DNA from: Nanobdellota archaeon
GTDB taxonomy: Archaea > Nanobdellota > Nanobdellia > Woesearchaeales > GW2011-AR4
Assembly (NCBI GenBank): GCA_022564635.1
Contig: JADFLA010000003.1
Location: 1-53,729, forward strand
Reading direction: 5' to 3'
DNA: 53,729 nt
Both the position numbers and the translations under genes were made by a program. Under the pieces are notes generated by a model. That model made no database searches, had not been told where the DNA came from, and saw only the letters and a list, made by a program, of their open reading frames with translations. Below, piece by piece: positions 5,454 through 44,575 of the stretch; the stretch's first letter is position 1; the number at the start of each line of letters is the position of its first letter.

Positions 5454-6005
5454 TTGGGCATTAAAGACAAATTCAAAAAAGAGGTAAAAAATCTTAAGGA
5501 TTATATAGTTCTTGTTACAGTAAATCCCAAAATCTATCAAAAATCGAATTTGGAAATCTTAAATGTACTAGTCAATGAACAAAAAACTCCTGGAGTATAT
5601 GTTACCTTAAACAAGCCTTTTGATATAATGAAGAGGCTGCTTAAGCAGAGCAAAATAGATTCGAGGTTAGTAATTTTTATAGATGGGATTACAAAAGTAC
5701 CTGAAAATAAAAAGGTAAAAAACTGCCTCTTTATAGGGTCACCTGAAAAATTGAGTGATATTTCTCTTGCTATGGATCAAGCAGTTAAGGCCTTGCCAAC
5801 AAAAGAAAAATTCATATTCTTTGATTCGATAAACACTTTGAGTGTATTTAACAAACCTGGAACTGTAGCGAGGTTTGTTTATTTTTTAGCCAGCAAAATA
5901 AGGGAGTGGAAAATTAAGGGTATCATAATATCTGTCAAGAAAGATTCTGACGAATCTTTAATTAATGAACTTGTGCAATTTTGCGATTCGAGAATTGATT
6001 TATGA
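5454..6005 (+). CDS. Degenerate RecA/KaiC-fold protein without Walker A (DUF835-like)
   Basis: VYVTLNKP, FIDG, SPEKLSDI, FFDSINTL and CDSRI pattern. Paralogous to 39609-40145. TTG start with GGTGGAG SD. Confidence 0.6.
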   Translation: MGIKDKFKKEVKNLKDYIVLVTVNPKIYQKSNLEILNVLVNEQKTPGVYVTLNKPFDIMKRLLKQSKIDSRLVIFIDGITKVPENKKVKNCLFIGSPEKLSDISLAMDQAVKALPTKEKFIFFDSINTLSVFNKPGTVARFVYFLASKIREWKIKGIIISVKKDSDESLINELVQFCDSRIDL

Positions 6006-25123: not shown

Positions 25124-25396
25124 ATGAGACAAACCAAGAGTTGTGCATGTTTGATAGGCGCGGCTGCAAGAGATTTAGAAATATCAAAAAGAAAATCTAT
25201 GTTGAGGATAGAAGAAATAAACAAAAAGCTTAAGACTTCTAAAGATACAAAGAAAATAATAAAGTTGAAGGATAAAAAAAGGGAAATCATGAAGGCTATA
25301 AAAGAAACCACCAAGCATAAAATGAATGTAAAAAAACTATTTGATGAGCATATTAAAAAGAGTGGTTATGTGCCACCAAAATATAAAGGTAGGTAA
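25124..25396 (+). CDS. Small Lys-rich hypothetical protein (90 aa)
   Basis: GAGGGTG SD; first gene of the plus-strand signalling cluster. Confidence 0.6.
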   Translation: MRQTKSCACLIGAAARDLEISKRKSMLRIEEINKKLKTSKDTKKIIKLKDKKREIMKAIKETTKHKMNVKKLFDEHIKKSGYVPPKYKGR

Positions 25397-25400
25397 TATA

Positions 25401-25730
25401 ATGCATACTAATCAAAAAATTTTAAAGAATTTTTTTGATACTATAATAAGAATAGTTTCTCAGGGAACTTCTGATACATATGCTACAATGATATTAATGA
25501 AATTTAATAAAGAAAATACTTCAGATTTTCCTTTTGTTAAGTATATAAATTTGTATTCAAAGAAAATGGAAATAAATCAAAAAATCAATTCTGTTAATTC
25601 AAAACTTGTTGCAAAATACATTACAAAATTAGTAAATTCTATTTTTTCCGATTTGTTCAAGCACTTGCTTAAAAAAAATATGAGTTTAGAATTACTTAAA
25701 GATTTTAAAAAATTAGGAGTTAAAATTTGA
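25401..25730 (+). CDS. Unknown ~110-aa protein, paralogue 1 of 3
   Basis: Ungapped similarity to 29304 and 43826 ORFs (TNQ..FF..TS..Y..F.F.K.I..IN..LL..LG). Start reassigned to ATG 25401. Confidence 0.75.
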   Translation: MHTNQKILKNFFDTIIRIVSQGTSDTYATMILMKFNKENTSDFPFVKYINLYSKKMEINQKINSVNSKLVAKYITKLVNSIFSDLFKHLLKKNMSLELLKDFKKLGVKI

Positions 25731-25868
25731 TAAATGCTTCATTATACATAAATTTTTATATTAAAGAATTCATAATAATTAAAATGTGGTATTTTGCACA
25801 AAAAAGGGCAGCGGAAATTAAAAATTTCCTGGTCTTTTTTTATTAAAAATAAAAAAAGGTGAATAAAA

Positions 25869-27074
25869 ATGAGTTTGGATTTGAATACTGGAATTGGTGT
25901 AAGTGTTTTAACGGATTCTTATAAGGCTGGTGCTGAGGCAGCTGGAAAAGCACTTAAAGAACTTGGCCAAAAAAAAGCTGATGTGTTAATGGTGTTTGCT
26001 GCGCCAAAATTTAAGCAGCAGAAGATGGTGAATGGTATAAAATCTGTAACAAAAAATATACCAATGATAGGCGGGACAACTGCTGGAGAAATATCTACAC
26101 AAGGATTAAGTGTAAAATCAGTTGTTGTTATGGCTATTAACTCGAAAGACATAGAATTCTATGTTGGTCAAGGTAAAAATATAGCTAAGAATGAGGTTAA
26201 TGCTGGTAAGCAGTTGGCAAAAAACGTCCTTAAGAAAGCATCCAAGAAAAATGCCAATACATTAGTAATGCTGCCAGATGGATTAGCTGGAGATGGGTTG
26301 GCCGTTATACAAGGAGCACAAAAAGTTTTGGGAGAGAGCTTTGAGATTGTTGGTGGATCTTTAGGGGATGAATCCGATTTTAAACATACATATCAATATT
26401 ATAATGGAAAAGTCTATGATAATACTGTTGTGGGAATGTTAATTTGTGGTGGTAAAAAAATAAAAACAGCAACCGGAGTTAGAAGCGGATGGGAGTCAAT
26501 TGGTAATAGATTTAAATCCACAAAATCAAAAGGCAATGTTGTGTATAAGTTTGGAAACAAAAAAGCATTGGATTTTTATAGGGAGTTACTGGGTAAGGAA
26601 AGAGGAAAGAAATTACCGGCAATTGGCTTAGAGTATCCTATGGGACTAATTGATGAAAGAGCTAAGATAGAAGGCTATGATTATTTCCAGATAAGATGTC
26701 CGGTTGGGATAGATGAAAAAGCAGGTAGTGTTACTTTTGCAGCATCTATACCTGAGGGCAAGGAAGTAACATTGACATATTCTTCTAGGTCGACAATAAT
26801 TAACGGCTCTAAGCTTTCAGCTATGCAAGCTAAAAAAACCTTAAAGGGAAAAGCAAGGTTAATTATGATGTTCAGTTGTGTAGCTAGAAAAATGGTGCTA
26901 GGGAGAAGAACAAATGAAGAGGTGAATTTAGTTAAAAGTGTTTTTGGAAAAAATGTACCAATTGTTGGTTTTTACACTTATGGAGAAATAGGACCTATTG
27001 ACAAAAGAGTTCCTACATTAAGAAACACAAGATGGCATAATGAAACTGTTGTACTATATGTATTGGGAGAATAG
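25869..27074 (+). CDS. FIST signal transduction protein (FIST_N + FIST_C)
   Basis: GGTTAGEI, GGSLGD, SCVAR, GFYTYGEI and HNET motifs; AGGTGA SD. Confidence 0.92.
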   Translation: MSLDLNTGIGVSVLTDSYKAGAEAAGKALKELGQKKADVLMVFAAPKFKQQKMVNGIKSVTKNIPMIGGTTAGEISTQGLSVKSVVVMAINSKDIEFYVGQGKNIAKNEVNAGKQLAKNVLKKASKKNANTLVMLPDGLAGDGLAVIQGAQKVLGESFEIVGGSLGDESDFKHTYQYYNGKVYDNTVVGMLICGGKKIKTATGVRSGWESIGNRFKSTKSKGNVVYKFGNKKALDFYRELLGKERGKKLPAIGLEYPMGLIDERAKIEGYDYFQIRCPVGIDEKAGSVTFAASIPEGKEVTLTYSSRSTIINGSKLSAMQAKKTLKGKARLIMMFSCVARKMVLGRRTNEEVNLVKSVFGKNVPIVGFYTYGEIGPIDKRVPTLRNTRWHNETVVLYVLGE

Positions 27075-27197
27075 ATTTGAAAACCTTGATTATAGATTAA
27101 AAGGGATTATTGCGGTTTTTTGGGTTCAATAATAAGCAAAATTATAGCTGATTAATATTTCTCATTTTTCTTTTTTAAATTTAAGTAAAAGACTAAG

Positions 27198-28928
27198 ATG
27201 AAAAAAATAAGAGGGAAATTAAGAAAAGATAAGGTAAAAGCAACAGTTAAAACAAGTGGTTATATTACTGAACGCAAGGAAGCAGAGAGAGCATTGCGGA
27301 AGAGTGAGGAAAAATATATATCAATTACAGAATCAGTTCCCCTTGGGATAGAGGAAATAGATACTAATGGAATAATAACTTTTTCTAATTCAGCGCAACA
27401 CAAAATGTATGGTTATGCTAAAGGAAAATTGATAGGAAGATCAATACTTGATTTTGTTCCTGGTCCTGAGAAAGAAAAGTTGCGCAAGTATCTGAAGTTT
27501 TTGGTGGAGAAACAGCCTAAACCTGTTCCCTATTTTGGAAAGAAAATAACAAAAAAAGGAAAAATTATAGATGTTCAAGTGTCTTGGAATTACAAGCGTG
27601 ACAAAGAAGGACGCGTCATAGGTTTCAATTCTGTCATTACAGATATCACTAAACGGAAAAAAGCAGAGGAAAAACTACTACAACAAGCTGTTTTTATGAA
27701 AAACAATCCGGCCCCTGTTCTTAGAATGGGGTATGACGGTAAGATTATTGAAATTAATCCGGCAGCTAAAAAATTGTTTAAAAAAGACTTAGTGGGTATA
27801 TCGATACATAATATTTTTTCTTATATTAGCAAATCTGTAATTGCAAGCTTACTTATGGTAGACACGTTTCAATTTGAACAAAGAATTGGTAAAGAAACTT
27901 TCTCATTTATATTAAATAGAGATGAGCCAACACATTCATACTGTTTTTATGGTAGTGAAGTTACAGAGAGAGAAAAATCAGCAGAAATGTTAAAAGAACA
28001 AAATAAAGATCTTTTGAGAAAAAGTATGGATTTAACGGAACTTGGAGGACAGCTTGAGGACAGGAATTATGAATTAGAATCTGCAATTAAGAGTATAAAT
28101 AAACAAAATAAAGATCTTGTAAAAACGTCTATGGCTTTAACAGAACTCAGAGGACAGCTTGAGGACAAGAATTATGAATTACAACAAGCAAATAAAGAAA
28201 TTTTGAGCCTTATGGAGGCTAGGACCGATTTTATTAATAAAGCTGCTCATGATTTAAGAACACCTATTACCCCAATATTAGTCCTGCTTCCAACAATTAA
28301 AAAACGCATAAAGGATATTGGAGTTTTATTTGATCTAAAGGTTATTGAAAGAAATGCAAATTATTTGAAAAACATAGCAGACAATCTTATTAGCTACTTA
28401 AAATCGAATACTCAAAAATACGATTATAATTTCAAAAAAACTGATATAAGAGAATTAATAGAAGATGTGCTCATAACTTATAGGGAGGTATTCAAACAAC
28501 GCAAAATATCTATAATAAAAAAATTTTCCGGAAATCTTCCTCTTATTAAATTAGATGGACTTAAGATTACAGAGGTACTTCAAAACATTGTTTCAAATTC
28601 AATAAAGTTTATGCCTAGAGTAGGAAAATTAACTATTAGTGTAAAAAAAATGGATAATTTTATAAATATTAGATTTAAAGATACTGGTATTGGAATTAAA
28701 AAAGAAAATTTAGAGGAGATATTTATAGAATTTTTTAAAGCTGATGTGTCCAGACATACTGCAGGTGAGGGACTTGGTCTTTCAATATGCAAAGGAATTA
28801 TAGAGGACCATCATGGCAAAATATGGGCTGAAAGTAAGGGTCTAGGAAAAGGAACCACAGTATCTTTTAATATTCCAATAACACAAAAAAAGGTGAAGTT
28901 ATATGAAAAACAAACCGAAGAAAAATAA
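27198..28928 (+). CDS. Cytoplasmic PAS-PAS histidine kinase
   Basis: PAS/PAC (DITKRKKAEE), HisKA AAHDLRTP, N box NIVSNSIKF, DTGIGI, GEGLGL; no TM. Confidence 0.93.
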   Translation: MKKIRGKLRKDKVKATVKTSGYITERKEAERALRKSEEKYISITESVPLGIEEIDTNGIITFSNSAQHKMYGYAKGKLIGRSILDFVPGPEKEKLRKYLKFLVEKQPKPVPYFGKKITKKGKIIDVQVSWNYKRDKEGRVIGFNSVITDITKRKKAEEKLLQQAVFMKNNPAPVLRMGYDGKIIEINPAAKKLFKKDLVGISIHNIFSYISKSVIASLLMVDTFQFEQRIGKETFSFILNRDEPTHSYCFYGSEVTEREKSAEMLKEQNKDLLRKSMDLTELGGQLEDRNYELESAIKSINKQNKDLVKTSMALTELRGQLEDKNYELQQANKEILSLMEARTDFINKAAHDLRTPITPILVLLPTIKKRIKDIGVLFDLKVIERNANYLKNIADNLISYLKSNTQKYDYNFKKTDIRELIEDVLITYREVFKQRKISIIKKFSGNLPLIKLDGLKITEVLQNIVSNSIKFMPRVGKLTISVKKMDNFINIRFKDTGIGIKKENLEEIFIEFFKADVSRHTAGEGLGLSICKGIIEDHHGKIWAESKGLGKGTTVSFNIPITQKKVKLYEKQTEEK

Positions 28929-29307
28929 GAAGGTTATCTTGTTGGTTGATGACAATCCTGATCTGCTATATAGCGTCAAAAAAGGGTTAGAGTCTATTAG
29001 CAAAGATTTTAAAGTAGTTACTGTAGAGAGCGGCAAGGAATGCCTGCAATCATTAAAGAAGATTAGACCAGACCTAATTTTATTAGATATAATGATGCCA
29101 GATATGGATGGCTGGGATACTTGCGCTAAAATTAAAAGCGATAAAAAAACAGAAAATATACCTATAGTTTTCTTAACAGCAAAAACTGATCCAGTAAGCA
29201 GGAGTATGGGTGGACTTGCATCTGCGGATTATATAACCAAGCCATTTGATATGAAAGACTTGAAAAAAAGAATTGATTTTGTTATTAGGTCAAAAAATGA
29301 GAAATGA
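28903..29307 (+). CDS. Stand-alone response regulator receiver (REC1)
   Basis: VDDN, DLILLDIMMP, FLTAK and KPF motifs. Confidence 0.95.
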   Translation: MKNKPKKNKKVILLVDDNPDLLYSVKKGLESISKDFKVVTVESGKECLQSLKKIRPDLILLDIMMPDMDGWDTCAKIKSDKKTENIPIVFLTAKTDPVSRSMGGLASADYITKPFDMKDLKKRIDFVIRSKNEK

Positions 29308-29648
29308 AAATCAAAAATATGACAAATCAGATTGTTACTAGAGATTTTTTTAAAACTACTATGGACATTATAGCGGAAAGTACCTCGCGTAGTTATAGTG
29401 CGGTTGTTATAGAAGGGGTTAAAGAACAACTAGGAGAGGAATTTAAGTTCTCAAAAAGTATTCGTATAATAGGCAAATCAATCGAAGTTGATGAGACAAT
29501 TAATTCTGTAGGCGAAATACAATTAAGAAAATTTTTTACAAAAGTTGTTAATATGATGGGAGCTAATTACTTGAAAATGCTGTTGGCCCAAAAACTTGAT
29601 ACAAAAGCCTTAAATTATTTAGAAAATCTTGGATTAAGGTTTGGTTAA
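29304..29648 (+). CDS. Unknown ~110-aa protein, paralogue 2 of 3
   Basis: ATGA overlap with REC1; similar to 25401 and 43826 ORFs. Confidence 0.8.
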   Translation: MKIKNMTNQIVTRDFFKTTMDIIAESTSRSYSAVVIEGVKEQLGEEFKFSKSIRIIGKSIEVDETINSVGEIQLRKFFTKVVNMMGANYLKMLLAQKLDTKALNYLENLGLRFG

Positions 29649-29671
29649 ATAATAATAAAAAAGAACGGATA

Positions 29672-29831
29672 ATGGAAGATGAAAAACTTGAAAATATCAA
29701 TATAACATATCTAACTATTCTTACATTTTCAAAGAATCAAAAACAGAAACTAAAAAAAATTGGATCATATACAAAAATCATTTGATAATAAAGAATTAAT
29801 TACAAGTGTTAATAGGATAACTAAGAAATAA
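29672..29831 (+). pseudogene. Frameshifted remnant of the C-terminal half of a receiver domain
   Basis: MEDEKLENINITYLTILTFSKNQKQKLKK, frameshift in A8 (29752-29759), then LDHIQKSFDNKELITSVNRITKK. Aligns to the C-half of REC3. Confidence 0.6.
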
Positions 29832-29836
29832 GGGAG

Positions 29837-30217
29837 ATGATAAAAATGGCAAAAAAAACAATAATGATAGTTGATGATGAACCACCTATTAACAAGGTAA
29901 TTGAAGATATTTTAGAACCTGAAGGTTATAATGTGGTATCAGCATTAAGTGGTCCTGAAGCTTTAGATAAGCTAAAAAAAGTAAAACCGCATCTTATTTT
30001 AATTGATTTCTTCATGCCTGGAATGTCTGGAAGAGAGCTATGCGTAAAAATAAGAGCAGATAGTAAATTAAAAGATCTTAAGGTGGCATTTATAACAGCT
30101 GCGACATTCTCAGCATCGGGTAGGGACGAACTAGAAAAAATGAATGTTCTAGATACTATAAATAAACCATTTGACTATAAAGATTTGATTCAAAGAGTAA
30201 AGAAGATGGTCGGGTAA
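29837..30217 (+). CDS. Stand-alone response regulator receiver (REC3)
   Basis: VDDEP, LILIDFFMP, FITA and KPF motifs. Confidence 0.94.
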   Translation: MIKMAKKTIMIVDDEPPINKVIEDILEPEGYNVVSALSGPEALDKLKKVKPHLILIDFFMPGMSGRELCVKIRADSKLKDLKVAFITAATFSASGRDELEKMNVLDTINKPFDYKDLIQRVKKMVG

Positions 30218-30244
30218 ATAGGAGTAATAATTGGGTAAGATAAA

Positions 30245-31015
30245 ATGCCAAAAAAAGATAAGTACTTAAAAACAGGTATTGCCGGATTTGATATTCTATT
30301 TGAGCATGGTATACCTAAAGGTAAGGCTATATTAATTGAAGGCTCTGCTGGAACTGGAAAGACAATTTTTTGTCTGCAAACGGCATATAACACATGTAGA
30401 ATGGGTAAAAAAGTGTTGTATATGAGTTTTGAAGAGTCTGAAGATAGCTTAATAGAGCATATGGAAGATTTTGGGTGGAATGCAATTGAAATGCAAAAAA
30501 GAGGCCTGTTGCGAATAACTAGATTTAGCGCTATAGACATAGCAAGGTCTGTTGAGGCTTTGCTTAGTGAGGCAAAAAAGGAACTTTTAATAACTACTGA
30601 AACAGTTCTCTTTCCTCACGACTTTGATCCAGAAGTGATAGTTATAGATTCCCTTACAGCAATTGCTTCAGCCTTTAGTGGAGAAGATTATAGGTTTCGC
30701 ATTTATATTGAACAACTTTTTAGATATCTTGAAAAGAAAAAAATTACCAGTTATTTAATAAAAGAAACTCCTGCTCCAACCCATATAGGCGGTGTTTATA
30801 AAGATGAGCATGGGCCGATAGCTTTTTTAGCAGATGGTATAATATGTATATATAATGTGGTCTATACTGGGGGAAAGAGAGGAGGTGCTATAGAGATTTT
30901 AAAAATGAGGGGTGAAAGTTTTAAAAAAATAACAGTAAAAATAGAAATAAAATCTAAAAGTGGATTAATTGTTTATCCTAACCAAGAACTTAAGGGAAAT
31001 TATGTACTTACTTGA
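30245..31015 (+). CDS. Single-domain KaiC/RAD55-like ATPase
   Basis: TGIAGFD, Walker A GSAGTGKT, SFEES, VIDS, LADG and ILKMRG motifs. Confidence 0.92.
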   Translation: MPKKDKYLKTGIAGFDILFEHGIPKGKAILIEGSAGTGKTIFCLQTAYNTCRMGKKVLYMSFEESEDSLIEHMEDFGWNAIEMQKRGLLRITRFSAIDIARSVEALLSEAKKELLITTETVLFPHDFDPEVIVIDSLTAIASAFSGEDYRFRIYIEQLFRYLEKKKITSYLIKETPAPTHIGGVYKDEHGPIAFLADGIICIYNVVYTGGKRGGAIEILKMRGESFKKITVKIEIKSKSGLIVYPNQELKGNYVLT

Positions 31016-31062
31016 ATTTGATATTTTTTCTATTTATATTATGAACCTATACCTCCTTCTAA

Positions 31063-32565: not shown

Positions 32566-32589
32566 TTTTAATTATGTGCATAAAAATAA

Positions 32590-38500: not shown

Positions 38501-38916
38501 TCCTTGACATTCCAATTAAATTGAGTATTTTTAACAGTTAAATCAATAATACCATTAATTGTTTCTATTCCATCGTTATCTTCATCGTAAGGTGTATTAT
38601 TATTATAATTTAATATTATTTTTATTGATTTGTTTATTGTTATATTTGTAGTTATATAGGTATCATTAATTGTTTGATTTGTATTAATTTCATTGATTGG
38701 TTTACTAATATTTATGTATGATATTGGAATATTTACATTTGTTTTATTAATTGGTAATGTGATATTTGGTATTTTATCATTAATTGATACATTTATTTCA
38801 GAGCTATTGGTATCATTCAAAGCGTATACTAATGAAAATGGAATTATTATAAGTGCAAGGAGTATTGGAGCTAATTTAATCATTACTTTTCCTGCTTTAT
38901 CATCTAATAATTTCAT
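32590..38916 (-). CDS. Giant (2108 aa) membrane-anchored surface glycoprotein or adhesin
   Basis: Signal peptide, many NxS/T sequons, Cys-rich and Ig/CARDB-like domains, Thr-rich plus Gly14 linker (34636-34677), one TM, Lys/Glu-rich tail. Confidence 0.85.
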   Translation of the reverse strand: MKLLDDKAGKVMIKLAPILLALIIIPFSLVYALNDTNSSEINVSINDKIPNITLPINKTNVNIPISYINISKPINEINTNQTINDTYITTNITINKSIKIILNYNNNTPYDEDNDGIETINGIIDLTVKNTQFNWNVKEENLCTRWNIYSIDSGNANTICHGSQRCCNFVELTSLRNDWNEIFYINYWQYGTSFNNTISAQVIYVDYNLSVDKPYVDIYYSSKKNLSAKFREVIDTVEKTENITGAIIVNIETKQFRAVIGQPVKWKVRVRYSDATKANITLPKIINFSAKKIINNKEFKINKKNIKVKKDNIIKTVDEFELDKITGYSVRITDGTSLFSGFLNWMFNKFNSLTGYAIVDVKDSDELEIIIEEEVEEIEIEYYTEAPIAIEEEIINGKKITVSSELPYTDILTFTSIPEDPDAIIKLYWYASEKDYKEYIDSEYLIIGDGRKIKTDITNENYFEVSFADENSNGLIDTIYWITPHTSEQEFEINVIRITKAMHLDKNYVFISDIYDEVIEKDTIWSEPIYENEYVRITFERNLTSSNDITVYTRNNQGLNTYIEVYPEDSAEKITEFPVITEEKYYKVLLIGMDGAHDTFDLKIKNLDDNKNAYLEFDHIIDPASDIGTGSADTDAVFCDKPTSDDPTEATCSGTSTSDAGDEVRTNDTTYYTINGKDDDYITVVTRNTTVNDCVSINSIVAHCIHLEVESNKGGRVGLTYSLDDGSTWSAIDYETGIDNTAEHEHNITITDATCTDVNNDEIEIRCAGDDTDAGSAASINIDQIYFVLDYTQDTTPPRMNSSINNSAPTKNDVVNISANVTDNAFLSFCQFITNQSSGAKEFFNTSISGTDDKCSQNFTIALARGNVINFTVIVNDTSNFLNQSEQIITVANFIPTPTIFFPTNDLKTNLQPLHLNVTFENDRDNDVINISYYIDGVLNQTQLGNTTFNASDGIYILNVSLFDNVSGAAPSANVTVSFTIDTVKPIVNISSPVNLFNSSSENVTFKFNVTDNLATSLNCSIYFDAVLNTTNSSTLNGTATLFEIKNISEGTFIWNITCLDGANSNTSETRNFSVDLNAPIINKISFDPNTTADVDDDVLLNFTINVTDSSSGVKTVVLFYKLASAATFKIATAQLNNVGLFNTSFTPDETGNWSYFINVTDHVGFNATSKITNISVEQELTWNRIPNKFTAIACPVSTTCSIGNLTINNSGDSLLTFDLSSRFTGTSFNKTEPFDLAAKDYEVVEVTADAGTTTSVFDAELTIDATTTDAVPDSEITSAKITVFLGGPVFDVTIINPPTEANKSDPGVHHLNASIKNIGNETAGFTYVNWTLPSEWNNITGRLNQNFTNVSVQEIVYHNITVNLTSNAATGTQKVNVTAASNNSGSGSAAASIVVTETSTAATTITITTVVSGGGGGGGGGGGGGGIGAGLIQEQEIETEAVYELVRGEDEDFILPINNDFDWPLQNISVAVTGFLAQYIELTNIPSEIAPNSSANVIIRITAPRYFTKGEWTLYFTIDAIYIKKFAETNSTQTIHFSEKRKVLLAIHELSREDAAKLINLSLNEIIILEDLNLSTKKLRKLLADSKDKLKATDYEAVQELHDLIKEKVARALQAYEKIQEFTVKIAKAKERGIETPDTQRLVSLTLSALEREDYFTAFARLKEIELTFALETKGKFSILDFIKRNRLLASFMAFYILIFALSIFFKIKIEKINYDLRNSLKERGILRGLMQTAQRECFEKKTIDMAQYNITMLQYEKKLSDVIQKILELESLKASLVRPALHRLSLERKRLLDLIKQTQDEYIVKGQQETGVYKRKIHNYSTKLSEVEGKIILKEAEAAIRKERRLKFLSLFGIKLKPKKEKPKEKAKEHKKTVIISRISLFFENLIKIMEEIRPLKLLKKQKKEEMQIKLRKTESIELSTPQAPSQLLEEEKLPEKERKERLREEKRRKEFRKQRQKELEKRRKDEERIRKEKEIQEELKEKHEEKEREHQKKLEKKREEKKRFSVIGDLFKRKGKAVEHIKIPPVKLKPEVKKAKVKTDSINAIKEKIHKARLALMDFKFNDAKRIYIEIMSMYNGLDQKNKVRIYPHIKDLYYERKTADKFTK

Positions 38917-39128
38917 TTCTTAATCTCCCATACATTCAGATTGCTGATTCTATAACCTAAAATCTTACCAGCTAATTGTAATCTCAAACAATGACCTTGA
39001 ACAGAATGCCATGCCCTGCCTATCTTTAGGGCTATATCCCTTGTAGAAATCGGAGTTTTTGAATCACGTAGGACTTTAAGTATATCGGACTCTATTTTTC
39101 TGCCTAATTTAGCCTTCCTAGTAGTCAT
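38913..39128 (-). CDS. Small winged-HTH regulator (71 aa), translationally coupled to the giant protein
   Basis: ILKVL..PISTRDIA.KIGRAWHSV..L.L..G wHTH pattern; ATGA overlap. Confidence 0.8.
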   Translation of the reverse strand: MTTRKAKLGRKIESDILKVLRDSKTPISTRDIALKIGRAWHSVQGHCLRLQLAGKILGYRISNLNVWEIKK

Positions 39129-39163
39129 TATTGTATATTATTATACTTTTTATATATAAATAT

Positions 39164-39201
39164 TGCGAATATTGATACTAATATTAATACTAATATTCGC
39201 A
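39164..39201. promoter_or_regulatory. Candidate operator next to the TATA box (39149-39160)
   Basis: 10-bp inverted repeat TGCGAATATT...AATATTCGCA enclosing two direct ATACTAATATT repeats. Confidence 0.55.
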
Positions 39202-39410
39202 CTTAGAAAACTAGTTTTTTTGTGTTATGAGTACAATCTTTATTTTGTCGAAACATATATAAAACAAATCATTAAGAAAAGGATTGAATAGAATGTATAA
39301 AAATTAAATTTAGACTCAGATGAGGATATCATAGAAATTTGCCTAACTCTGGATTAACATCTGGAGTTTGATTTATAATTTTATTTTAGAGGCAAATTTC
39401 TAGGACACTG

Positions 39411-39460
39411 AGAAATGCCAAAGGCATTTCTGGTGTGCCAAAAATTGCAAAGCAATTTTT
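39411..39460. repeat. REP-like tandem palindromes with C-AAA-G centre, cluster 1
   Basis: AGAAATGCC-AAA-GGCATTTCT and AAAAATTGC-AAA-GCAATTTTT. Confidence 0.75.
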
Positions 39461-39608
39461 AAGTATGCCAAAAATAGATAACTCATAGGTACAATTTTTC
39501 GCTCTGTATTCCGCTTCACTACATCCCGAGTTATCTATTTTTGTGCATATTCCCGTAGAAAGTTTTAAATAGAAATATTATAAGGTTATAGTAAAAGAGA
39601 GTGGTCTT

Positions 39609-40145
39609 ATGAATATTGAAGAAGAAATTATAAAAAATCAGTCGATATTGGTCTTAATTGCGAAATCTGAATATCCAAGTAAACATATGGAAATAGTAGG
39701 ATTATTGGACAAAAATTTCAAAAAAATAGGTTATGTTTACCTCAAAAAATCCTACAAAACTCTTAAAAAAAAATTAACTAAAAACAAAGTTAACTTTAAC
39801 AAGTTTTTATTTATAGGCCTAAATAAACCTACTAAAGAACAGCTTAAAGCAGAATATTATAGTTATATTACTTCGCCTGCAGATTTTGGAGGAATAAACA
39901 TAGCTTTATCTGATTTGGTGTATAGGGGATGTAAAAGTTTTTTATTTGATTCTTTATCTAATATGATTGCTCATGTTAAGAGAGATAAATTGCTCAAATT
40001 TATAAATACAATAATTATTAAAACAAAAGTTGCTAATGCTAATGTTATTTTTTTAGCTTTAAGTGAAAATATTGACTCTAATTTGTTTAATGATTTAAAT
40101 ATGGTTTTTGATAAAATTATTGTGACTCCAACAGATAATAAATAA
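39609..40145 (+). CDS. Degenerate RecA/KaiC-fold protein without Walker A (DUF835-like)
   Basis: YVYLKK, SPADF and FLFDSLSNM pattern; paralogue of 5454-6005. Confidence 0.6.
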   Translation: MNIEEEIIKNQSILVLIAKSEYPSKHMEIVGLLDKNFKKIGYVYLKKSYKTLKKKLTKNKVNFNKFLFIGLNKPTKEQLKAEYYSYITSPADFGGINIALSDLVYRGCKSFLFDSLSNMIAHVKRDKLLKFINTIIIKTKVANANVIFLALSENIDSNLFNDLNMVFDKIIVTPTDNK

Positions 40146-40184
40146 AACAAAGAGAGTATTAAAGGGATAGCATAAAAAATAAAA

Positions 40185-43100
40185 TTGATGAATGGGATAT
40201 TTAGCATATTCAAAAAAGAGAAACCAGAAGTTAAAGAAACAGAAATTAGAGTAGCTGATGGGATAATTGATTATGCTGTTAGTTTGATAAAAGATAAGGA
40301 AAGTATCAAAGAACAGCTTAAAGAAATTGATAAAATAAGAAAACTTCCTGTTGACGAAAGAGAATATTCTTACCTGCTGGTGTATCTCAGCTTAGAAAGA
40401 GTTATTTTAGCAAAAAAGCCTGCACCTACTAAAGAATATTTTTCACGAAAGATTTTAAAAAAGCCAAAAGAATTTACGCAAGATGGTTTAAGAAGAACTA
40501 TAAGAAAAAAATTTGAAATAAATAAACTAGGGGTATATTTTAGAGTTCTATTTCTTAATGAACCTCAGCAAAGTTTAATTCTATATGAGCTAATGTTTCA
40601 GGAATTTATGGATTTAATATCTGATAAAATTAAAAAAAAAATTCCTGATGTTATTTTAAAAGAAAACTATGATGTTCTTAATGGCACTAAAATAGAAAAT
40701 GGAAAGATGGATTTATCATCTGTAAATGAGAAAATTGAAGAAAAACAAGTGAATGTTGAAGATATAATAATCCCTTTTAAAAATTTATTCTTTGTATTTT
40801 ATAGCAATGTAGTTAAAAGTGACGGCAAAGAGTTAGCTGATAAACTTGTGATGGATGTTTACAATTTTGTAGAAATTTACGGTCATCCTCTAACCTCGGC
40901 TGCAATTCAAATTTTGCCCAAGATAACATCTAAAGAAACAAAAGCAGCAGCTGCTCATAGGATTGTGGATTATTTAAGCATGCTAATTTTAAGAAAAGAC
41001 CTGATAAAGCCTCAAATTGATAAAATAGCGGATGCTGAAACACTTCCAGAAGAAGGTAAAGAAAAAGTCTATTTTAGTATTTATCTTGAACTGGAAAAAT
41101 TTATGATTGACCATTTACCTCCTGCTGTAGAAAAATCATTTACCAGAGAAGAGTTAAGAAAAGAAATAAGGGAAAAGATTAATACTCAAAATTTGGAGCA
41201 TAGATTTAAGTTACTATTTTTAGGAGAAAAAGAGCAATTAATTGAGTTATTTAATATGTTTTATGGGTTGCTTTTAGAACAGATGGTTTCATTTTGGGCA
41301 GCAGGTGATTTACAAAAATTTGTCAGCGAAAATGTAAAAGGAACAATGCTTGATAGTCTTGGATTTACTATTGAGAAAAAAGAAATTGGTTTTGATGTTT
41401 CTGAAACAAATATCGATACTTTACCAAAGAATAAACTAAAAGATGTTATTCATGATTTGTCTGCATTTCTTCTTGTTTTGTATAAAAATGCAAAAGAGAC
41501 AGGTGGTGAGAAAAAGGCAGAAAAGGCAATTAGCAAGGCCTATAAAATAATGAAAGAACAATATGGCATGCTTCCTATTTTTAATGATTTTGTTAGAGCA
41601 ATTCCAGAAGGCGTGTTAGACTATGAGAATAAGATTTTATTATCACCCAGAGCAGCGGAAGAGGTTGTAACCTATATAACTAAAATTCTAAAAAAAGAAA
41701 AAATAGAAGAGCATTTAAAGGCCATGGAAGAAACAAGGAAATTACCTTTGGAAGAACAGGCAGAAGCTTTCTTTAATATTTATATTAATTTACAGCATTA
41801 CATTATTGAAGAAAGACCTTCTTTTAAAGGAAAAGAGATAACCTTGTCAGATTTAAAGGAAAAAATAAGAAGACATGTAAATGTCAAAGATTTAGAGGAC
41901 AAATTTCAACTACTATTTTTAACGCATGACGAAGTACTTGTTAAACTTGTGAGAGACCTAATTAAAGAATGTATTGTTAATTTTATTGATAAAAAAGCTT
42001 TGGTAGAAGCTGTAAAAGATCTTACAAAAAAAAACTCTTTTTTAAGGAATGTGGAAATTGATGAAGAAGGCTTAATTGATTTTGAACCGTTTTTTGATAA
42101 GCTTAAAAAAGTTGAGGTTGCGAAAGTTAGAGTTCTTAGCATTACTTTATCTAAGATCGTATTAGCAATATATGAAAAATCTAAAGAAATTTTAGGAGAG
42201 TTACAAGCTAAAAAACTTTTTGAGATTGCTTATGCAAATCTGCAAAAAAAATATGGTGCAAATTTATTGCAGGTATTAAGAGTTATTCCCAAAGGAATAC
42301 TGGAAGCTGAGAAATTTGAGTTACTCGGTAAAGAGGAAATAGAAAAAACTGCCAAAGAAATGGTAAAAATAGACACTATAAAAGGAGAGTTTATGAATAT
42401 CGCAGCACATGAACTAAAAACACCTCTTGTGCCAATTATTAGCTATCTAGAGATGCTACTTAATGATAAAAGGCTAGCGAGGGATCAGAAAGAAAAGCTA
42501 AGAATATGCTTATCCTCTGCAAAGAGAGAAGCTGATTTAGTAAGTGATATACTTGATATAAGCAAGTTAGAGGCAGGATCATTAAAGTTAGAGTTTGAAA
42601 CACTTGACATGGTAGAGCTTTTAAAAGAAATTACAGATGGTTTAGGTCCTGCTATAAGGGGGAAAAAACTGGCATTTAAAGTAGAAGTACCATCTAAACT
42701 TCCACTTGTTAGAGGGGATAAGAGAAGACTTACACAAGTAGTATCCAACTTAATTAATAATGCTACAAAATTTACAGATAAAGGGAGTATAACTGTTAGA
42801 GCTCAGATGGAAAAACAAAATATACTTGTTAGTGTAATAGACACAGGAATGGGCATTAGTAAAGAAAATATACATAAGTTATTTACAAAATTTTTTCAAG
42901 TTGATAGCACTGCTAGGAGAAAACAGGGTGGAACAGGCTTAGGATTAGCAATTTCCAAAGGGATTATTCAAGGGCATAAAGGCAAACTATGGGTTGAAAG
43001 TGATGGTATAGGAAAAGGCACTACTTTTTCTTTTACAGTGCCATACCTTCCTACAACAGAAAAAGAAAAAATGGAAACACAAAGAGAACAAAACTCTTTT

Positions 43101-43235
43101 GTTTCCCAGGAACCAAAGGTGAAAACAGAAAAAGTTATAAAGAACAAAGCTAAGGAAAAGAAGAAAGAGAAGGATAAGGTTAGAAAGTCTAGGCATAAAA
43201 AATCATCAATAATTAAAAACACGCGAAAATCGTAG
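40185..43235 (+). CDS. Cytoplasmic histidine kinase with three tandem ~230-aa unknown N-terminal repeats
   Basis: HisKA AAHELKTP, NLINNATKF, DTGMGI, FFQV, GTGLGL. Repeats start near 40254, 40953 and 41655. No TM. Confidence 0.92.
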   Translation: MMNGIFSIFKKEKPEVKETEIRVADGIIDYAVSLIKDKESIKEQLKEIDKIRKLPVDEREYSYLLVYLSLERVILAKKPAPTKEYFSRKILKKPKEFTQDGLRRTIRKKFEINKLGVYFRVLFLNEPQQSLILYELMFQEFMDLISDKIKKKIPDVILKENYDVLNGTKIENGKMDLSSVNEKIEEKQVNVEDIIIPFKNLFFVFYSNVVKSDGKELADKLVMDVYNFVEIYGHPLTSAAIQILPKITSKETKAAAAHRIVDYLSMLILRKDLIKPQIDKIADAETLPEEGKEKVYFSIYLELEKFMIDHLPPAVEKSFTREELRKEIREKINTQNLEHRFKLLFLGEKEQLIELFNMFYGLLLEQMVSFWAAGDLQKFVSENVKGTMLDSLGFTIEKKEIGFDVSETNIDTLPKNKLKDVIHDLSAFLLVLYKNAKETGGEKKAEKAISKAYKIMKEQYGMLPIFNDFVRAIPEGVLDYENKILLSPRAAEEVVTYITKILKKEKIEEHLKAMEETRKLPLEEQAEAFFNIYINLQHYIIEERPSFKGKEITLSDLKEKIRRHVNVKDLEDKFQLLFLTHDEVLVKLVRDLIKECIVNFIDKKALVEAVKDLTKKNSFLRNVEIDEEGLIDFEPFFDKLKKVEVAKVRVLSITLSKIVLAIYEKSKEILGELQAKKLFEIAYANLQKKYGANLLQVLRVIPKGILEAEKFELLGKEEIEKTAKEMVKIDTIKGEFMNIAAHELKTPLVPIISYLEMLLNDKRLARDQKEKLRICLSSAKREADLVSDILDISKLEAGSLKLEFETLDMVELLKEITDGLGPAIRGKKLAFKVEVPSKLPLVRGDKRRLTQVVSNLINNATKFTDKGSITVRAQMEKQNILVSVIDTGMGISKENIHKLFTKFFQVDSTARRKQGGTGLGLAISKGIIQGHKGKLWVESDGIGKGTTFSFTVPYLPTTEKEKMETQREQNSFVSQEPKVKTEKVIKNKAKEKKKEKDKVRKSRHKKSSIIKNTRKS

Positions 43236-43250
43236 ACTTTCGGTGAACTG

Positions 43251-43328
43251 GGAAATTTCAAAGAAATTTCCGGTTTCCCAAAAATTGCAAAGCAATTTTT
43301 TAGGATCCTGAAAATGCAAAGCATTTTC
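43251..43328. repeat. REP-like tandem palindromes with C-AAA-G centre, cluster 2
   Basis: GGAAATTTC-AAA-GAAATTTCC, AAAAATTGC-AAA-GCAATTTTT (identical to 39440-39460) and GAAAATGC-AAA-GCATTTTC. Confidence 0.75.
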
Positions 43329-43447
43329 ATGACAATAAAGTTCAAAAACATAATAATAATTGATTGATTAACTTTTTGTATTATTAAAGATTATACCACA
43401 ACAAATAATAAAAAATTAAATCAAACAAATTTTAAGAATTTATAATA

Positions 43448-43822
43448 ATGGTAAAAAAATCAATAATGATAGTTGATGACGAACCAATGATCGTAAAAGT
43501 AGTAAAAGATATTTTTAAAGAGGAAGGTTATAAGGTAATTACAGCATTAAGTGGCCAAGAATGTCTTGAAAAATTGAAAAATACAAGTGTAGATCTAATT
43601 TTGCTTGATATAATGATGCCGGGTATGGATGGCTGGGATACGTGCGCTAAAATCAAAAGCGATAAAAAAACAGAAAAGATACCTATAGTTTTCTTAACAG
43701 CAAAAACTGATCCGGTAAGCAGGAGTATGGGCGGGCTTGCATCTACAGCTTATATAACCAAGCCATTTGATATGAAAGATTTGAAAAAAAGAGTTGATTC
43801 TGTTATCAAAGCTAGCAAATAA
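43448..43822 (+). CDS. Stand-alone response regulator receiver (REC2)
   Basis: VDDEP, DLILLDIMMP, FLTAK and KPF motifs. Confidence 0.95.
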   Translation: MVKKSIMIVDDEPMIVKVVKDIFKEEGYKVITALSGQECLEKLKNTSVDLILLDIMMPGMDGWDTCAKIKSDKKTEKIPIVFLTAKTDPVSRSMGGLASTAYITKPFDMKDLKKRVDSVIKASK

Positions 43823-43825
43823 GAA

Positions 43826-44164
43826 ATGGTAGATATGACAAATCAGATTGTGACTAAGGATTTTTTTGAGAAAACTATTAATATTATAGCTCAAAATACT
43901 TCTTTTAGTTATAGTACAATTGCTTTAAACGGTATTAAAATGCAACTAAGTAAAGAATTTAATTTCTTAAAAGATATTCATATAAAAGGAAAATCGGTAG
44001 ATGTTGATAAAACTATAAATAATATTGGAAAAAATGAATTGAGAAATTTTTTTAGAAAAGTAATTGATATGGTAGGGCCTAATTACTTAAAAATACTTTT
44101 GGCCCAAAAACTCAATCCTAAATCATTGATGTATTTAGAAAATATTGGGTTAAGGTTTGGTTAA
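43826..44164 (+). CDS. Unknown ~110-aa protein, paralogue 3 of 3
   Basis: Directly follows REC2; close homologue of 29304-29648. Confidence 0.8.
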   Translation: MVDMTNQIVTKDFFEKTINIIAQNTSFSYSTIALNGIKMQLSKEFNFLKDIHIKGKSVDVDKTINNIGKNELRNFFRKVIDMVGPNYLKILLAQKLNPKSLMYLENIGLRFG

Positions 44165-44575
44165 ATGGCAATAAAAATATTTTCCTGGATTGTATATGTA
44201 TTGTTTTTTCTTATTTTAATGAATTTTGTATCAGCCCAATCAGAGATAATTAATCTTAATAATCTAAAAAATATTGCAATTCCTATACACTTGTTTGAGC
44301 TGGTTTTAGCACTTTTTATTGCATTCATGTCTTTGAAATTTTTTAGAATAACTAAACCTATTAGTTTATTTTTATTTATATATGTTGCTGTAGGTTTCTT
44401 TATTATTAATTCATTGCTCTACTTATTTTTTTATTTGAGTATAGATACCAGATTAGAGATGGTTTTTGTAAATGTGCATATAGGAAGTAGGGTTGCATTG
44501 ATGGGGATGTTAATATCATTTGTAATCTTTTTCTATCAGTGGAATAAGATTATGAGAAGAACGGATATTAAGTAG
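44165..44575 (+). CDS. Hypothetical membrane protein (4 hydrophobic helices)
   Basis: Abuts the previous stop codon. Confidence 0.7.
   Translation: MAIKIFSWIVYVLFFLILMNFVSAQSEIINLNNLKNIAIPIHLFELVLALFIAFMSLKFFRITKPISLFLFIYVAVGFFIINSLLYLFFYLSIDTRLEMVFVNVHIGSRVALMGMLISFVIFFYQWNKIMRRTDIK

What the first reader, a model, noticed from the sequence alone, without database searches (positions are those of the whole stretch)
25124..44575. Candidate new signalling system: two soluble kinase > receiver > 110-aa unknown cassettes, with FIST and KaiC-like partners, flanking giant surface proteins
Seen: block A is X1, FIST, PAS kinase, REC1, X2, a REC remnant, REC3 and KaiC. Block B is a dead KaiC-like protein, the repeat kinase, REC2, X3 and a membrane protein. 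No receiver has a DNA-binding output domain and neither kinase has a TM. A wHTH and the 2108-aa and 500-aa surface genes lie between the blocks. Known: two-component systems are rare in characterised DPANN, and archaeal stand-alone receivers act through protein contacts. Inference: X proteins are the outputs or adaptors, possibly controlling adhesion or pili via KaiC-like proteins.
Basis: partly seen in the sequence, partly recalled or inferred. Interest (0 to 1): 0.72.

Follow-up and report, generated by a model that had tools for sequence, protein, structure and literature searches.

The report
New receiver-partner domain in archaeal signalling
A small archaeon (Woesearchaeota-like, from marine sediment) carries a two-component signalling operon whose receiver proteins always travel with an undescribed ~110-residue helical domain ("X") and a small membrane protein, which suggests a new way for archaeal receivers to pass on their signal; the link to giant surface proteins belongs to a second, more ordinary module inserted into this operon.

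Summary
The genes are there as described. The window holds both histidine kinases, all three intact receivers (REC) and all three X genes of the 1.43-Mb genome.

The "two cassettes flanking surface genes" layout is not conserved. Relatives have one operon: p90-X1-FIST-kinase-REC-X-TM136 (a 4-TM protein). Here about 14.5 kb (REC remnant, REC3, KaiC, surface genes, K178, repeat kinase, REC2, X3) sits between X2 and TM136.

X is a real domain family with 134 clusters. It has no Pfam, NCBIfam or PDB match, although its AlphaFold model is confident (pLDDT 91.6). It occurs:
- alone,
- in triplicate,
- fused to REC,
- fused to TM helices,
- fused to a probable wHTH.

In most contexts it lies next to a REC gene. 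All 34 X-adjacent receivers form one clade (99/97) that excludes 20 other receivers of the phylum and REC3.

So X as receiver partner is well supported. Its conserved downstream partner is TM136, not KaiC.

The KaiC and surface-protein link belongs to REC3 and K178. K178 is an iKaiC-like family present in 90 of 401 genomes and REC-adjacent in 22 of 29 loci.

REC domains occur in 57% of genomes of this phylum, so they are not rare.

One triple-X clade sits beside an Lhr helicase with no REC. This is a new variant of a known kind.

The parts
25124..25396 (+). p90: basic 90-aa protein with conserved CxCLI and SGYVPP motifs; first gene of the conserved operon
   Evidence: ORF. It is 41-47% identical in relatives at the same position. 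No Pfam or NCBIfam hit.
25401..25730 (+). X1: divergent X-domain paralogue, always before the sensor gene in relatives
   Evidence: 50-53% identical to the 110-aa genes in L001, L005, L023 and L024.
25869..27074 (+). Stand-alone FIST (NosP-like) protein, probable auxiliary sensor of the kinase
   Evidence: Pfam FIST 7e-43 and FIST_C 6e-37. NCBIfam NosP gives 97 bits against a cut-off of 450.
27198..28928 (+). HK1: soluble PAS-HisKA-HATPase_c histidine kinase
   Evidence: No TM segment. It is 58-67% identical to the kinases of the relatives' operons.
28903..29307 (+). REC1: stand-alone receiver of the X-linked clade
   Evidence: Pfam 5e-26. Tree clade 99/97. Its stop overlaps the X2 start by 4 nt.
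29304..29648 (+). X2: 114-aa X-domain protein
   Evidence: No Pfam, NCBIfam or PDB match. AF2 pLDDT 91.6.
29666..29831 (+). Frameshifted C-terminal remnant of a REC3-like receiver gene; scar of the rearrangement
   Evidence: tblastn matches in two frames. DNA repeat D8 to the REC3 3' end.
29837..30217 (+). REC3: stand-alone receiver of a different clade, whose relatives pair with K178-like proteins
   Evidence: Pfam 6e-23. Lies outside the X-linked clade and groups with the G247 and G173 receivers at 95/95. Those receivers sit next to K178 homologues.
30245..31015 (+). Single-domain KaiC-like ATPase with an intact Walker A motif
   Evidence: Pfam PF06745 1e-43. Sequence GSAGTGKT.
31063..32565 (-). 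500-aa membrane and coiled-coil protein, last gene of the minus-strand surface operon
   Evidence: ORF. TM segments.
32590..38916 (-). 2108-aa surface protein (signal or anchor segment, one late TM, charged tail)
   Evidence: ORF. TM at 7-36 and 1687-1712. It is 25% identical over 589 aa to a surface protein next to K178-like and REC3-like genes in G173.
38913..39128 (-). 71-aa basic protein overlapping the start of the 2108-aa gene by 4 nt; wHTH not verified
   Evidence: ORF. No Pfam or PDB match.
39407..39475 (.). REP-like 69-nt element; a second copy lies at 43247-43315 (81% identical), and together they bracket K178-HK2
   Evidence: family D4.
39609..40145 (+). K178: iKaiC-like protein without a P-loop, member of a family that usually follows a receiver gene
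   Evidence: DUF7504 8e-4. Homologues hit KaiC at 0.008 and DUF835 at 0.0014. The family is in 90 of 401 genomes and has a REC within 1.5 kb in 22 of 29 loci.
40185..43235 (+). HK2: soluble kinase with three ~230-aa N-terminal repeats and HisKA-HATPase_c
   Evidence: The repeat module gives one weak hit in 400 genomes. No similarity to X.
43247..43315 (.). Second copy of the REP-like 69-nt element
43448..43822 (+). REC2: receiver of the X-linked clade. Its C-terminal two thirds are about 95% identical in DNA to REC1, and its N-terminus is of a separate established type.
   Evidence: 81% identical to the receiver of L111.
43826..44164 (+). X3: 112-aa X-domain protein
   Evidence: Its stop abuts the TM136 start.
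44165..44575 (+). TM136: 4-TM protein that follows X in every relative. Conserved features are H42 and E45 in TM2, the loop KFFRITKP, and R109.

Best explanation
The region is two archaeal two-component modules that a rearrangement has joined.

Module 1 is an operon conserved in this Woesearchaeota-like family: p90-X1-FIST-kinase-REC-X-TM136.
- By analogy with bacterial NosP/NosK, the stand-alone FIST protein is an auxiliary sensor that sets the autophosphorylation of the soluble kinase. In one relative an ODP protein takes this place.
- The kinase phosphorylates a stand-alone receiver of a dedicated clade.
- That receiver's partner is X, an undescribed ~110-residue, mostly helical domain. X has no invariant polar residue, so it is a docking or adaptor module rather than an enzyme.
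- In this family X passes the state of the receiver to the co-translated 4-TM protein TM136, so the output is at the membrane rather than on DNA.
- In other archaea the same X domain is fused to the receiver, to TM helices or to a probable wHTH, or is triplicated between a receiver and a kinase.

Module 2 comprises REC3-KaiC, the wHTH-like gene with the 2108-aa and 500-aa surface genes, and K178 (iKaiC-like)-HK2. It is of the common type in this phylum, in which receivers pair with KaiC or iKaiC proteins.

In this genome about 14.5 kb (module 2 plus a second REC-X pair) lies between X2 and TM136. A receiver-gene remnant and a gene-conversion tract between REC1 and REC2 mark the event.

Shown: gene content, conserved order, fusions, a dedicated REC clade, and no known homologue of X.
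Inferred: physical REC:X and X:TM136 contacts, the direction of signal flow, and the FIST role.
For: Conserved operon. The order AI-2E(-) | p90, X1, FIST, HK, REC, X, TM134-138 recurs in a genome of the same genus (G360), of the same family (G181) and in metagenome contigs. REC/X and X/TM136 start-stop codons overlap or abut.

X is a family of its own.
- An exhaustive search found 134 clusters.
- No Pfam or NCBIfam hit.
- The AF2 model has pLDDT 91.6, but no Foldseek PDB hit is better than E=1.6.
- A PDB profile search found nothing.

Architectures:
- Single X.
- 2x and 3x X.
- REC-X fusion (5 clusters).
- TM-TM-X following HK-REC.
- X plus a C-terminal MarR-like region following REC.

Linkage to REC.
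- Among the loci of the >=36%-identity triple-X group, every one with enough flank has a receiver 150-300 bp upstream. Most have a kinase about 580 bp downstream.
- In L011 and L027, X lies with REC genes and no kinase is nearby.

Dedicated receiver clade. All 34 X-adjacent receivers form one clade (99/97), or 35 with L029. The 20 receivers from X-less genomes of the phylum and REC3 are excluded. The label needs 3 changes on the tree against 17.5 in shuffles (0 of 500 as low).

No invariant polar residue in X. The best conserved are S28 at 76% and N8 at 58%.

Sensor analogy. NosP-HK-RR operons are described in PMC12570481. The FIST protein hits NCBIfam NosP. An ODP protein replaces FIST in L005.

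Module 2.
- REC3-like receivers sit next to K178 homologues in G173 and G247. In G173 they also sit next to an S2108-like surface protein.
- The K178 family is REC-adjacent in 22 of 29 loci.
- iKaiC domains are known archaeal receiver partners (PMC5847659).

Rearrangement. Evidence comes from the remnant, the ~95% identical tract and the REP-like repeats.
Against: - No physical interaction was tested. The AF2 model of the natural REC-X fusion gives confident domains but pTM of only 0.64 and a weak linker, and no PAE was available.
- A whole clade of triple-X proteins (27 loci) has no receiver or kinase within 4 kb. It sits 92 bp after an Lhr helicase instead. X is therefore not exclusively a receiver partner.
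- G181 has HK-REC-TM134 without the second X, so TM136 can go with the receiver without an X between them.
- X1 is not next to a receiver.
- TM136 could equally be an input (membrane sensor) rather than the output.
- The FIST protein scores far below the NosP equivalog cut-off, and HK1 has its own PAS domains.
- The join across the REC1/REC2 repeat could not be confirmed independently.
Confidence: 0.6

Rival explanations
1. X acts on the phosphorelay itself rather than downstream of it. It could be an auxiliary phosphatase or stabiliser of REC~P (in the manner of CheZ, CheX or Spo0E). Alternatively it could be an input adaptor that couples the membrane protein TM136 to sensor-poor soluble kinases.
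For: - X is small, helical and always beside REC.
- The kinase in L110 has no sensor domain at all, so it must get its input from a partner.
- Triple X lies between a receiver and a kinase.
- TM136 has conserved charged residues in its TM helices, as a sensor or channel would.
Against: - No polar residue is invariant across the family: N8 58%, S28 76%, N67 63%. This is unlike catalytic Gln, Asn or Asp residues of known receiver phosphatases.
- X occurs with receivers but without a kinase in L011 and L027.
- The X-wHTH-like and REC-X fusions look like output architectures.
Confidence: 0.2
2. X is a nucleic-acid-binding or otherwise general-purpose domain, for instance a degenerate winged-helix-like module. 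On this view the receivers regulate it as a small transcription or RNA factor, and TM136 is unrelated to it.
For: - The X proteins are basic, with pI 9.4-9.9.
- The top Foldseek hits, though insignificant, are LysR- and MarR-type DNA-binding domains.
- One triple-X clade is encoded directly after an Lhr helicase.
Against: - Foldseek E-values are 1.6 or worse and TM-scores are at most 0.33.
- High pI is common in this AT-rich genome: p90, K178 and TM136 are also basic.
- Membrane-anchored TM-X fusions and the tight X-TM136 coupling fit poorly with DNA binding.
- The Lhr neighbourhood is flanked by housekeeping mevalonate genes, so it may be lineage synteny only.
Confidence: 0.1
3. The two-cassette layout is an assembly artefact or a minority variant. 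The true genome would have the ancestral single operon (HK1-REC-X-TM136), with the 14.5-kb segment lying elsewhere or as an excised circle, joined through the repeat shared by REC1 and REC2.
For: - Public unitigs of two samples break at an 87-nt node (29158-29244) with double depth that REC1 and REC2 share.
- All relatives have X followed directly by TM136.
Against: - The shared exact node is only 87 nt, shorter than the reads and the large k-mers used by metagenome assemblers.
- Depth of the insert equals that of the flanks in two samples.
- X2 and X3 differ by about 28% in DNA. A receiver remnant lies after X2. Both copies therefore exist and the rearrangement scar is real.
Confidence: 0.08

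Closest known systems
NosP/NosK/NosR operons of bacteria (FIST-domain haem sensor + histidine kinase + response regulator; PMC12570481)
   Same: A stand-alone FIST_N + FIST_C protein is encoded directly before a soluble histidine kinase and a receiver. The FIST protein hits the NCBIfam NosP model.
   Different: - The score is 97 bits against an equivalog cut-off of 450.
- Haem or NO binding is unknown.
- HK1 has its own PAS domains.
- The receiver has no c-di-GMP output domain. It is followed instead by X and a 4-TM protein.
- The setting is archaeal.
Archaeal stand-alone (CheY-like) receivers and the lineage-specific REC-associated 'output domains' of Galperin et al. 2018 (HalX, HalOD, MetOD, NitrOD, TackOD; PMC5847659)
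   Same: X is a small domain of unknown function found both free and fused to REC. It has a narrow phyletic spread and no DNA-binding signature. This is the pattern by which those domains were defined.
   Different: - X matches none of the Pfam models of those domains.
- It spans at least two archaeal lineages: Woesearchaeota-named and Thermoplasmata-named contigs.
- It is mostly encoded as a separate gene after the receiver.
- It comes with its own receiver clade.
REC-iKaiC / KaiC-like signalling hubs of archaea (Makarova, Galperin and Koonin 2017, cited in PMC5847659)
   Same: REC3 lies next to a KaiC-like ATPase. K178 belongs to a P-loop-less KaiC-like family whose members follow receiver genes in 22 of 29 loci.
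   Different: In this window K178 precedes a kinase rather than following a receiver. The similarity of K178 to KaiC, DUF835 and DUF7504 is below the Pfam cut-offs.
CheY-CheF adaptor logic of the archaeal chemotaxis system
   Same: A phosphorylated stand-alone receiver is read by a dedicated archaeal adaptor protein rather than by a DNA-binding domain (my own knowledge, not tested here).
   Different: There is no sequence relation and no che or archaellum genes are in the locus. The partner here is a 4-TM protein.

Membership tests
Two-component system (histidine kinase + receiver) | HisKA phospho-acceptor domain with the H-box histidine, plus an HATPase_c catalytic domain | tested here: met
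   HK1 scores HisKA 2.8e-6 and HATPase_c 1.3e-25. HK2 scores HisKA 2e-14 and HATPase_c 6e-29. The H-boxes AAHDLRTP and AAHELKTP are visible in the sequence.
Two-component system (histidine kinase + receiver) | Receiver domain with the acidic pocket (DD), the phospho-acceptor Asp, and the conserved T/S and K | tested here: met
   Pfam Response_reg scores 5e-26, 6e-23 and 9e-28. D16, D17, D62, T92 and K113 (REC1 numbering) are invariant in the three receivers.
Two-component system (histidine kinase + receiver) | Phosphotransfer from the kinase to the neighbouring receiver | not testable with these tools
   Needs an in-vitro phosphotransfer assay.
NosP (FIST haem NO sensor) - NosK - NosR | FIST_N + FIST_C single-domain protein encoded with a kinase and a receiver | tested here: met
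   The operon description is in PMC12570481.
NosP (FIST haem NO sensor) - NosK - NosR | Scores as a NosP equivalog | tested here: not met
   NF041558 gives 97.4 bits against a cut-off of 450.
NosP (FIST haem NO sensor) - NosK - NosR | Binds haem and senses NO; the response regulator has a c-di-GMP output | tested here: not met
   The receivers have no output domain. Haem binding is not testable here.
Described archaeal REC-associated output domains (HalX, HalOD1/2, MetOD1/2, NitrOD1/2/5, TackOD1) | Match to the Pfam model of the domain | tested here: not met
   No Pfam family at E <= 0.01 for X1-X3, triple X, REC-X, TM-X or X-wHTH. Only scattered noise appears at E <= 1.
Described archaeal REC-associated output domains without a Pfam model (AcidOD1, MetOD3-5, NitrOD3/4) | Sequence similarity to the published representatives | not testable with these tools
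   Their sequences could not be fetched. Lengths and taxa differ from X for most. AcidOD1 (70 aa, Aciduliprofundum) is the only one worth checking.
KaiC-like ATPase | PF06745 match with an intact Walker A | tested here: met
   For 30245-31015, the score is 1e-43 and GSAGTGKT is present.
iKaiC (inactivated KaiC-like; DUF835 / MEDS / DUF7504) | Recognisable KaiC-like fold without a P-loop, encoded with or fused to REC | tested here: inconclusive
   - K178 hits DUF7504 at 8e-4, below the cut-off.
- Its homologues hit KaiC at 0.008, DUF835 at 0.0014 and DUF7504 at 0.0015.
- Pairwise comparison with the KaiC of the window is not significant.
- The family is REC-adjacent in 22 of 29 loci.
Winged helix-turn-helix regulators | Significant match of the 71-aa protein (38913-39128) to a wHTH family or structure | tested here: not met
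   No Pfam hit. The best PDB sequence hit has E = 0.62.

The most novel reading that the evidence does not exclude
X together with its dedicated receiver clade is an ancient, mobile archaeal 'split response regulator'. X would be a general docking module for the phosphorylated receiver. It would couple one receiver type to very different outputs:
- a 4-TM protein in Woesearchaeota,
- TM anchors,
- wHTH DNA-binding domains,
- triple-X scaffolds in Thermoplasmata-like archaea.
On this reading X is a new fold and a new class of receiver output spread across archaeal phyla.
Probability: 0.4. Interest if true: 0.72.

Novelty: new variant of a known kind. Interest (0 to 1): 0.58.

Why it matters
Most archaeal response regulators are bare receivers whose targets are unknown. 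How they pass on the signal is a long-standing gap (PMC5847659).

This work gives a concrete, testable partner for one receiver clade:
- a compact domain with a confident predicted structure but no known relative;
- natural fusions that indicate what it connects to (membrane, DNA);
- a minimal four-gene cassette (kinase, receiver, X, 4-TM protein) in a very small genome, which holds that genome's only two detected histidine kinases.

It also shows that the eye-catching link to KaiC and giant surface proteins belongs to a different, already recognised type of module.

Tried and rejected
1. X as a sub-domain of the repeat kinase. The X HMM does not hit HK2 (E = 10). A profile-profile comparison of X with the three aligned repeats gives probability 0.2%. 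Rejected at this depth.

2. p90 as a truncated X. There is only a 15-bit HMM hit in a tiny database, and its own conserved motifs are different. Not pursued.

3. TM region of the TM-X fusions as a homologue of TM136. hhalign gives probability 0.1%. Rejected.

4. The wHTH of the X-wHTH fusion as a homologue of the 71-aa protein of the window. No similarity.

5. The giant protein next to REC/X-wHTH in L027 as a homologue of the 2108-aa protein. Only an Ig-like stretch matches, at E = 0.04.

6. REC2 as a chimera made in this genome from REC3 and REC1. Rejected because L111 carries the same N-terminal type in an ordinary cassette. The ~95% identical tract with REC1 is better read as gene conversion.

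7. A richer alignment for the REC-X fold. MAFFT misaligned the X rows onto REC whenever more than two REC rows were given. The usable alignment A7 had only three REC rows.

8. Centring a genome survey on the Thermoplasmata genome. That genome is not held.

9. A metagenome scan with the whole X superfamily. No conserved stretch was usable, so the triple-X alignment was used instead.

10. RNA evidence. Only DNA runs hold the stretch.

Full report
**1. What is in the sequence**

On the + strand lie:
- p90 (25124-25396)
- X1 (25401-25730)
- a FIST_N + FIST_C protein (25869-27074)
- a PAS-HisKA-HATPase_c kinase, HK1 (27198-28928)
- REC1 (28903-29307)
- X2 (29304-29648, overlapping REC1 by 4 nt)
- REC3 (29837-30217)
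- a KaiC-like ATPase with an intact Walker A (30245-31015)

On the - strand lie a 71-aa basic protein (38913-39128), a 2108-aa protein and a 500-aa protein, forming one operon.

The + strand then continues with:
- a 178-aa protein, K178 (39609-40145)
- a 1016-aa kinase, HK2 (40185-43235)
- REC2 (43448-43822)
- X3 (43826-44164)
- a 4-TM protein, TM136 (44165-44575)

Pfam supports all the named domains.

The stretch between X2 and REC3 holds a frameshifted C-terminal half of a REC3-like receiver (29666-29831). Neither kinase has a hydrophobic segment. HK2 starts with three ~230-aa repeats that are 26-31% identical to one another.

In the 1.43-Mb, 87%-complete genome, the window holds:
- both histidine kinases,
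- all three intact receivers (one partial and one weak match lie elsewhere),
- all three X genes.

**2. The layout is not conserved; one operon is**

Contigs that carry close X homologues all show the same order. These include a genome of the same genus (G360), one of the same family (G181), and Woesearchaeota-named MAGs. The order is:

AI-2E transporter (-) | p90, X1, FIST, (DUF5667), kinase, REC, X, a 134-138-aa homologue of TM136, then CBS genes.

Variants also exist:
- L005 has an ODP di-iron sensor in place of FIST.
- L110 has a 350-aa kinase with no sensor domain.
- L111 has a REC2-type receiver with an X2-like X.

In every one of them X is followed at once by the TM136 homologue.

In the window, X2 is followed by the receiver remnant. 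The TM136 gene follows X3, 14.5 kb further on. The window therefore equals the ancestral operon with about 14.5 kb placed between X and TM136. The inserted stretch is the remnant, REC3, KaiC, the surface operon, K178, HK2, REC2 and X3.

REC1 and REC2 are about 95% identical in DNA over their C-terminal two thirds. X2 and X3 are only about 72% identical. This indicates gene conversion between two older paralogues.

A REP-like 69-nt element brackets K178-HK2. The repeat module of HK2 is almost unique, with one weak hit in 400 genomes.

Caveat: public unitigs break at an 87-nt node shared by REC1 and REC2, so I could not confirm the joins independently. Depth is even across insert and flanks.

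**3. What X is**

*No known relative.*
- X has no Pfam or NCBIfam family.
- It has no PDB relative by sequence profile.
- Its AlphaFold model is confident (pLDDT 91.6, pTM 0.87). The model has five helices, two short helices and one beta-hairpin.
- The best Foldseek hit in the PDB nevertheless has E = 1.6 and a TM-score of at most 0.33.

*Size and architectures of the family.* An exhaustive profile search of 1.84 billion representatives found 134 clusters. The architectures are:
- about 110-aa singles;
- doubles;
- about 49 clusters of ~400-aa proteins with three X domains (one is named Thermoplasmata archaeon);
- a REC-X fusion of 274 aa (five clusters);
- proteins with two N-terminal TM helices followed by X;
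- X followed by a C-terminal region that weakly resembles MarR-type regulators (E = 0.04).

*Conservation.* Across the family the best-conserved positions are structural (F49, L50, I55, G110). The polar ones (N8 58%, T27/S28 55%/76%, Y31 60%, N67 63%) are not invariant. This speaks against an enzyme.

*Distribution.* X is rare in its own phylum, at 4 of 401 genomes.

**4. Is X linked to receivers?**

Yes, in most branches of the family:

| Context | Gene arrangement |
|---|---|
| Woesearchaeal operons | REC-X |
| G036 | two X genes divergent from REC-REC-HK-HK |
| L029 | HK-REC-(TM-X) |
| L027 | REC-(X-wHTH-like), no kinase nearby |
| L011 | REC, REC, triple X, REC-X fusion, no kinase nearby |
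| 80 metagenome loci with triple-X genes | see below |

Among the 80 triple-X loci, the group that is at least 36% identical to the query behaves uniformly. Every locus with enough flank has a receiver 150-300 bp upstream, divergently oriented. Most have a HAMP kinase about 580 bp downstream.

The strongest single result is the receiver tree (IQ-TREE, LG+C20).
- All 34 receivers that lie beside an X-domain gene form one clade with 99/97 support. These include the receiver moiety of the fusion and 19 triple-X loci.
- The L029 receiver joins that clade at 86/70.
- Twenty receivers taken from X-less genomes of the same phylum fall outside, as do REC3 and the second receivers of two triple-X loci.
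- The label needs 3 changes on the tree against 17.5 in shuffles (0 of 500 as low).

X and one receiver lineage have therefore travelled together across archaeal lineages. This is what is expected of direct partners.

*Limits.* A second triple-X clade (27 loci, 27-34% identical) has no receiver or kinase within 4 kb. It lies 92 bp after an Lhr helicase in 24 of 27 loci, with mevalonate-pathway genes downstream. X is thus not exclusively a receiver partner, although that neighbourhood may be lineage synteny only.

The AF2 model of the natural REC-X fusion has confident domains (X part 92-98). Its pTM is 0.64, its linker and alpha4-beta5-alpha5 region are weak, and no PAE was available. It neither shows nor excludes an interface.

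**5.

KaiC and the surface genes are absent from the operon in relatives, so they are not the conserved targets of X. They belong to a different module.

- REC3 groups (95/95) with receivers of G247 and G173.
- Both of those receivers are directly adjacent to K178 homologues (27-30% identity, E 5e-16 and 3e-24).
- In G173 the same operon starts with a surface protein that is 25% identical to the 2108-aa protein over 589 aa. It faces a large dCache kinase with an HK2-like catalytic core.
- K178 homologues weakly hit KaiC, DUF835 and DUF7504.
- The K178 family is present in 90 of 401 genomes.
- In 22 of 29 loci a receiver lies within 1.5 kb, usually just upstream.

REC-iKaiC pairing is a known archaeal theme (PMC5847659). 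Receivers themselves occur in 230 of 401 genomes of the phylum. Within this phylum, REC plus iKaiC-like is therefore the common solution and REC plus X plus TM136 is the rare one.

**6. Mechanism proposed**

*Shown:* the parts, their conserved order and coupling, the fusions, and the dedicated receiver clade.

*Inferred:*
- FIST (or ODP) acts as an auxiliary sensor on the soluble kinase, as NosP does on NosK (PMC12570481).
- The kinase phosphorylates the X-type receiver.
- The receiver docks on X.
- X relays to TM136. Its invariant cytoplasmic loop KFFRITKP and its intramembrane H42, E45 and R109 make it a plausible effector or channel-like target.

REC1 and REC2 differ in their N-terminal third, which includes helix alpha1. 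By general knowledge of two-component systems, this is the main specificity surface for kinases. They share the rest of the domain. This fits two kinases feeding one kind of X/TM136 output.

Rivals are listed separately. They are X as a phosphatase or input adaptor, X as a nucleic-acid binder, and an assembly artefact of the layout.

**7. Novelty**

The system is a two-component system, which is a known kind. The FIST-kinase and REC-KaiC pairings are also known.

What appears new is:
- the X domain, with no family, no structural relative and no literature found;
- its dedicated receiver clade;
- the X-TM136 pairing.

Some published REC-associated domains lack a Pfam model and could not be compared with X.

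Noticed in passing
window 5490-5990 (+): A second, distant paralogue of K178 (iKaiC-like; E 1e-7, 25% identity) lies elsewhere in the window, with no receiver nearby.
   Followed up: no
L071, L073-L109 (27 metagenome loci): A clade of triple-X proteins is encoded about 92 bp after a ~950-aa Lhr helicase (DEAD, Helicase_C, WH_Lhr, DEAD_assoc) in 24 of 27 loci. HMG-CoA synthase, thiolase and DUF35 genes follow. No receiver or kinase lies within 4 kb.
   Followed up: partly
L137-L165 (genomes of the same phylum): Receiver followed by a K178-like (iKaiC-like) gene is a recurrent pair: 22 of 29 loci have a REC within 1.5 kb and 11 also have a kinase. The family is present in 90 of 401 genomes.
   Followed up: partly
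L135 (G173:C36:32500-41500): An S2108-like surface protein, a 448-aa protein, a K178-like gene and a REC3-like receiver lie contiguously on one strand. They face a 1155-aa dCache kinase. This is a possible conserved link between giant surface proteins and this receiver type.
   Followed up: partly
L027:1-5717: A protein of more than 1780 aa with Big_7 (Ig-like) repeats lies directly before a receiver gene and an X-wHTH-like gene. It is not homologous to the 2108-aa protein of the window.
   Followed up: partly
L005:4873-5688 and L005:3441-4274: In one relative the FIST gene is replaced by an ODP (di-iron) protein (PF19583, 216 bits). A PilJ-HAMP protein lies nearby. This suggests swapping of auxiliary sensors in front of the same kinase-REC-X-TM cassette.
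   Followed up: partly
window 39407-39475 and 43247-43315: A REP-like 69-nt element with two internal palindromes is present as a direct repeat (81% identical) on both sides of K178-HK2.
   Followed up: partly
window 29158-29244: An 87-nt unitig has double depth in a public run of the source study. It is the exact stretch shared by REC1 and REC2, and it limits independent checking of the assembly.
   Followed up: partly
G000:C42:6192-6392: A partial receiver domain (model positions 2-68, 60 bits) in a 118-aa frame on another contig is the only clear REC match outside the window.
   Followed up: no
L013:7246-7365 and the equivalent place in other triple-X loci: A 39-aa ORF is called between the triple-X gene and the HAMP kinase in the Thermoplasmata-type loci. 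The spacing to the kinase is constant at about 580 bp.
   Followed up: no
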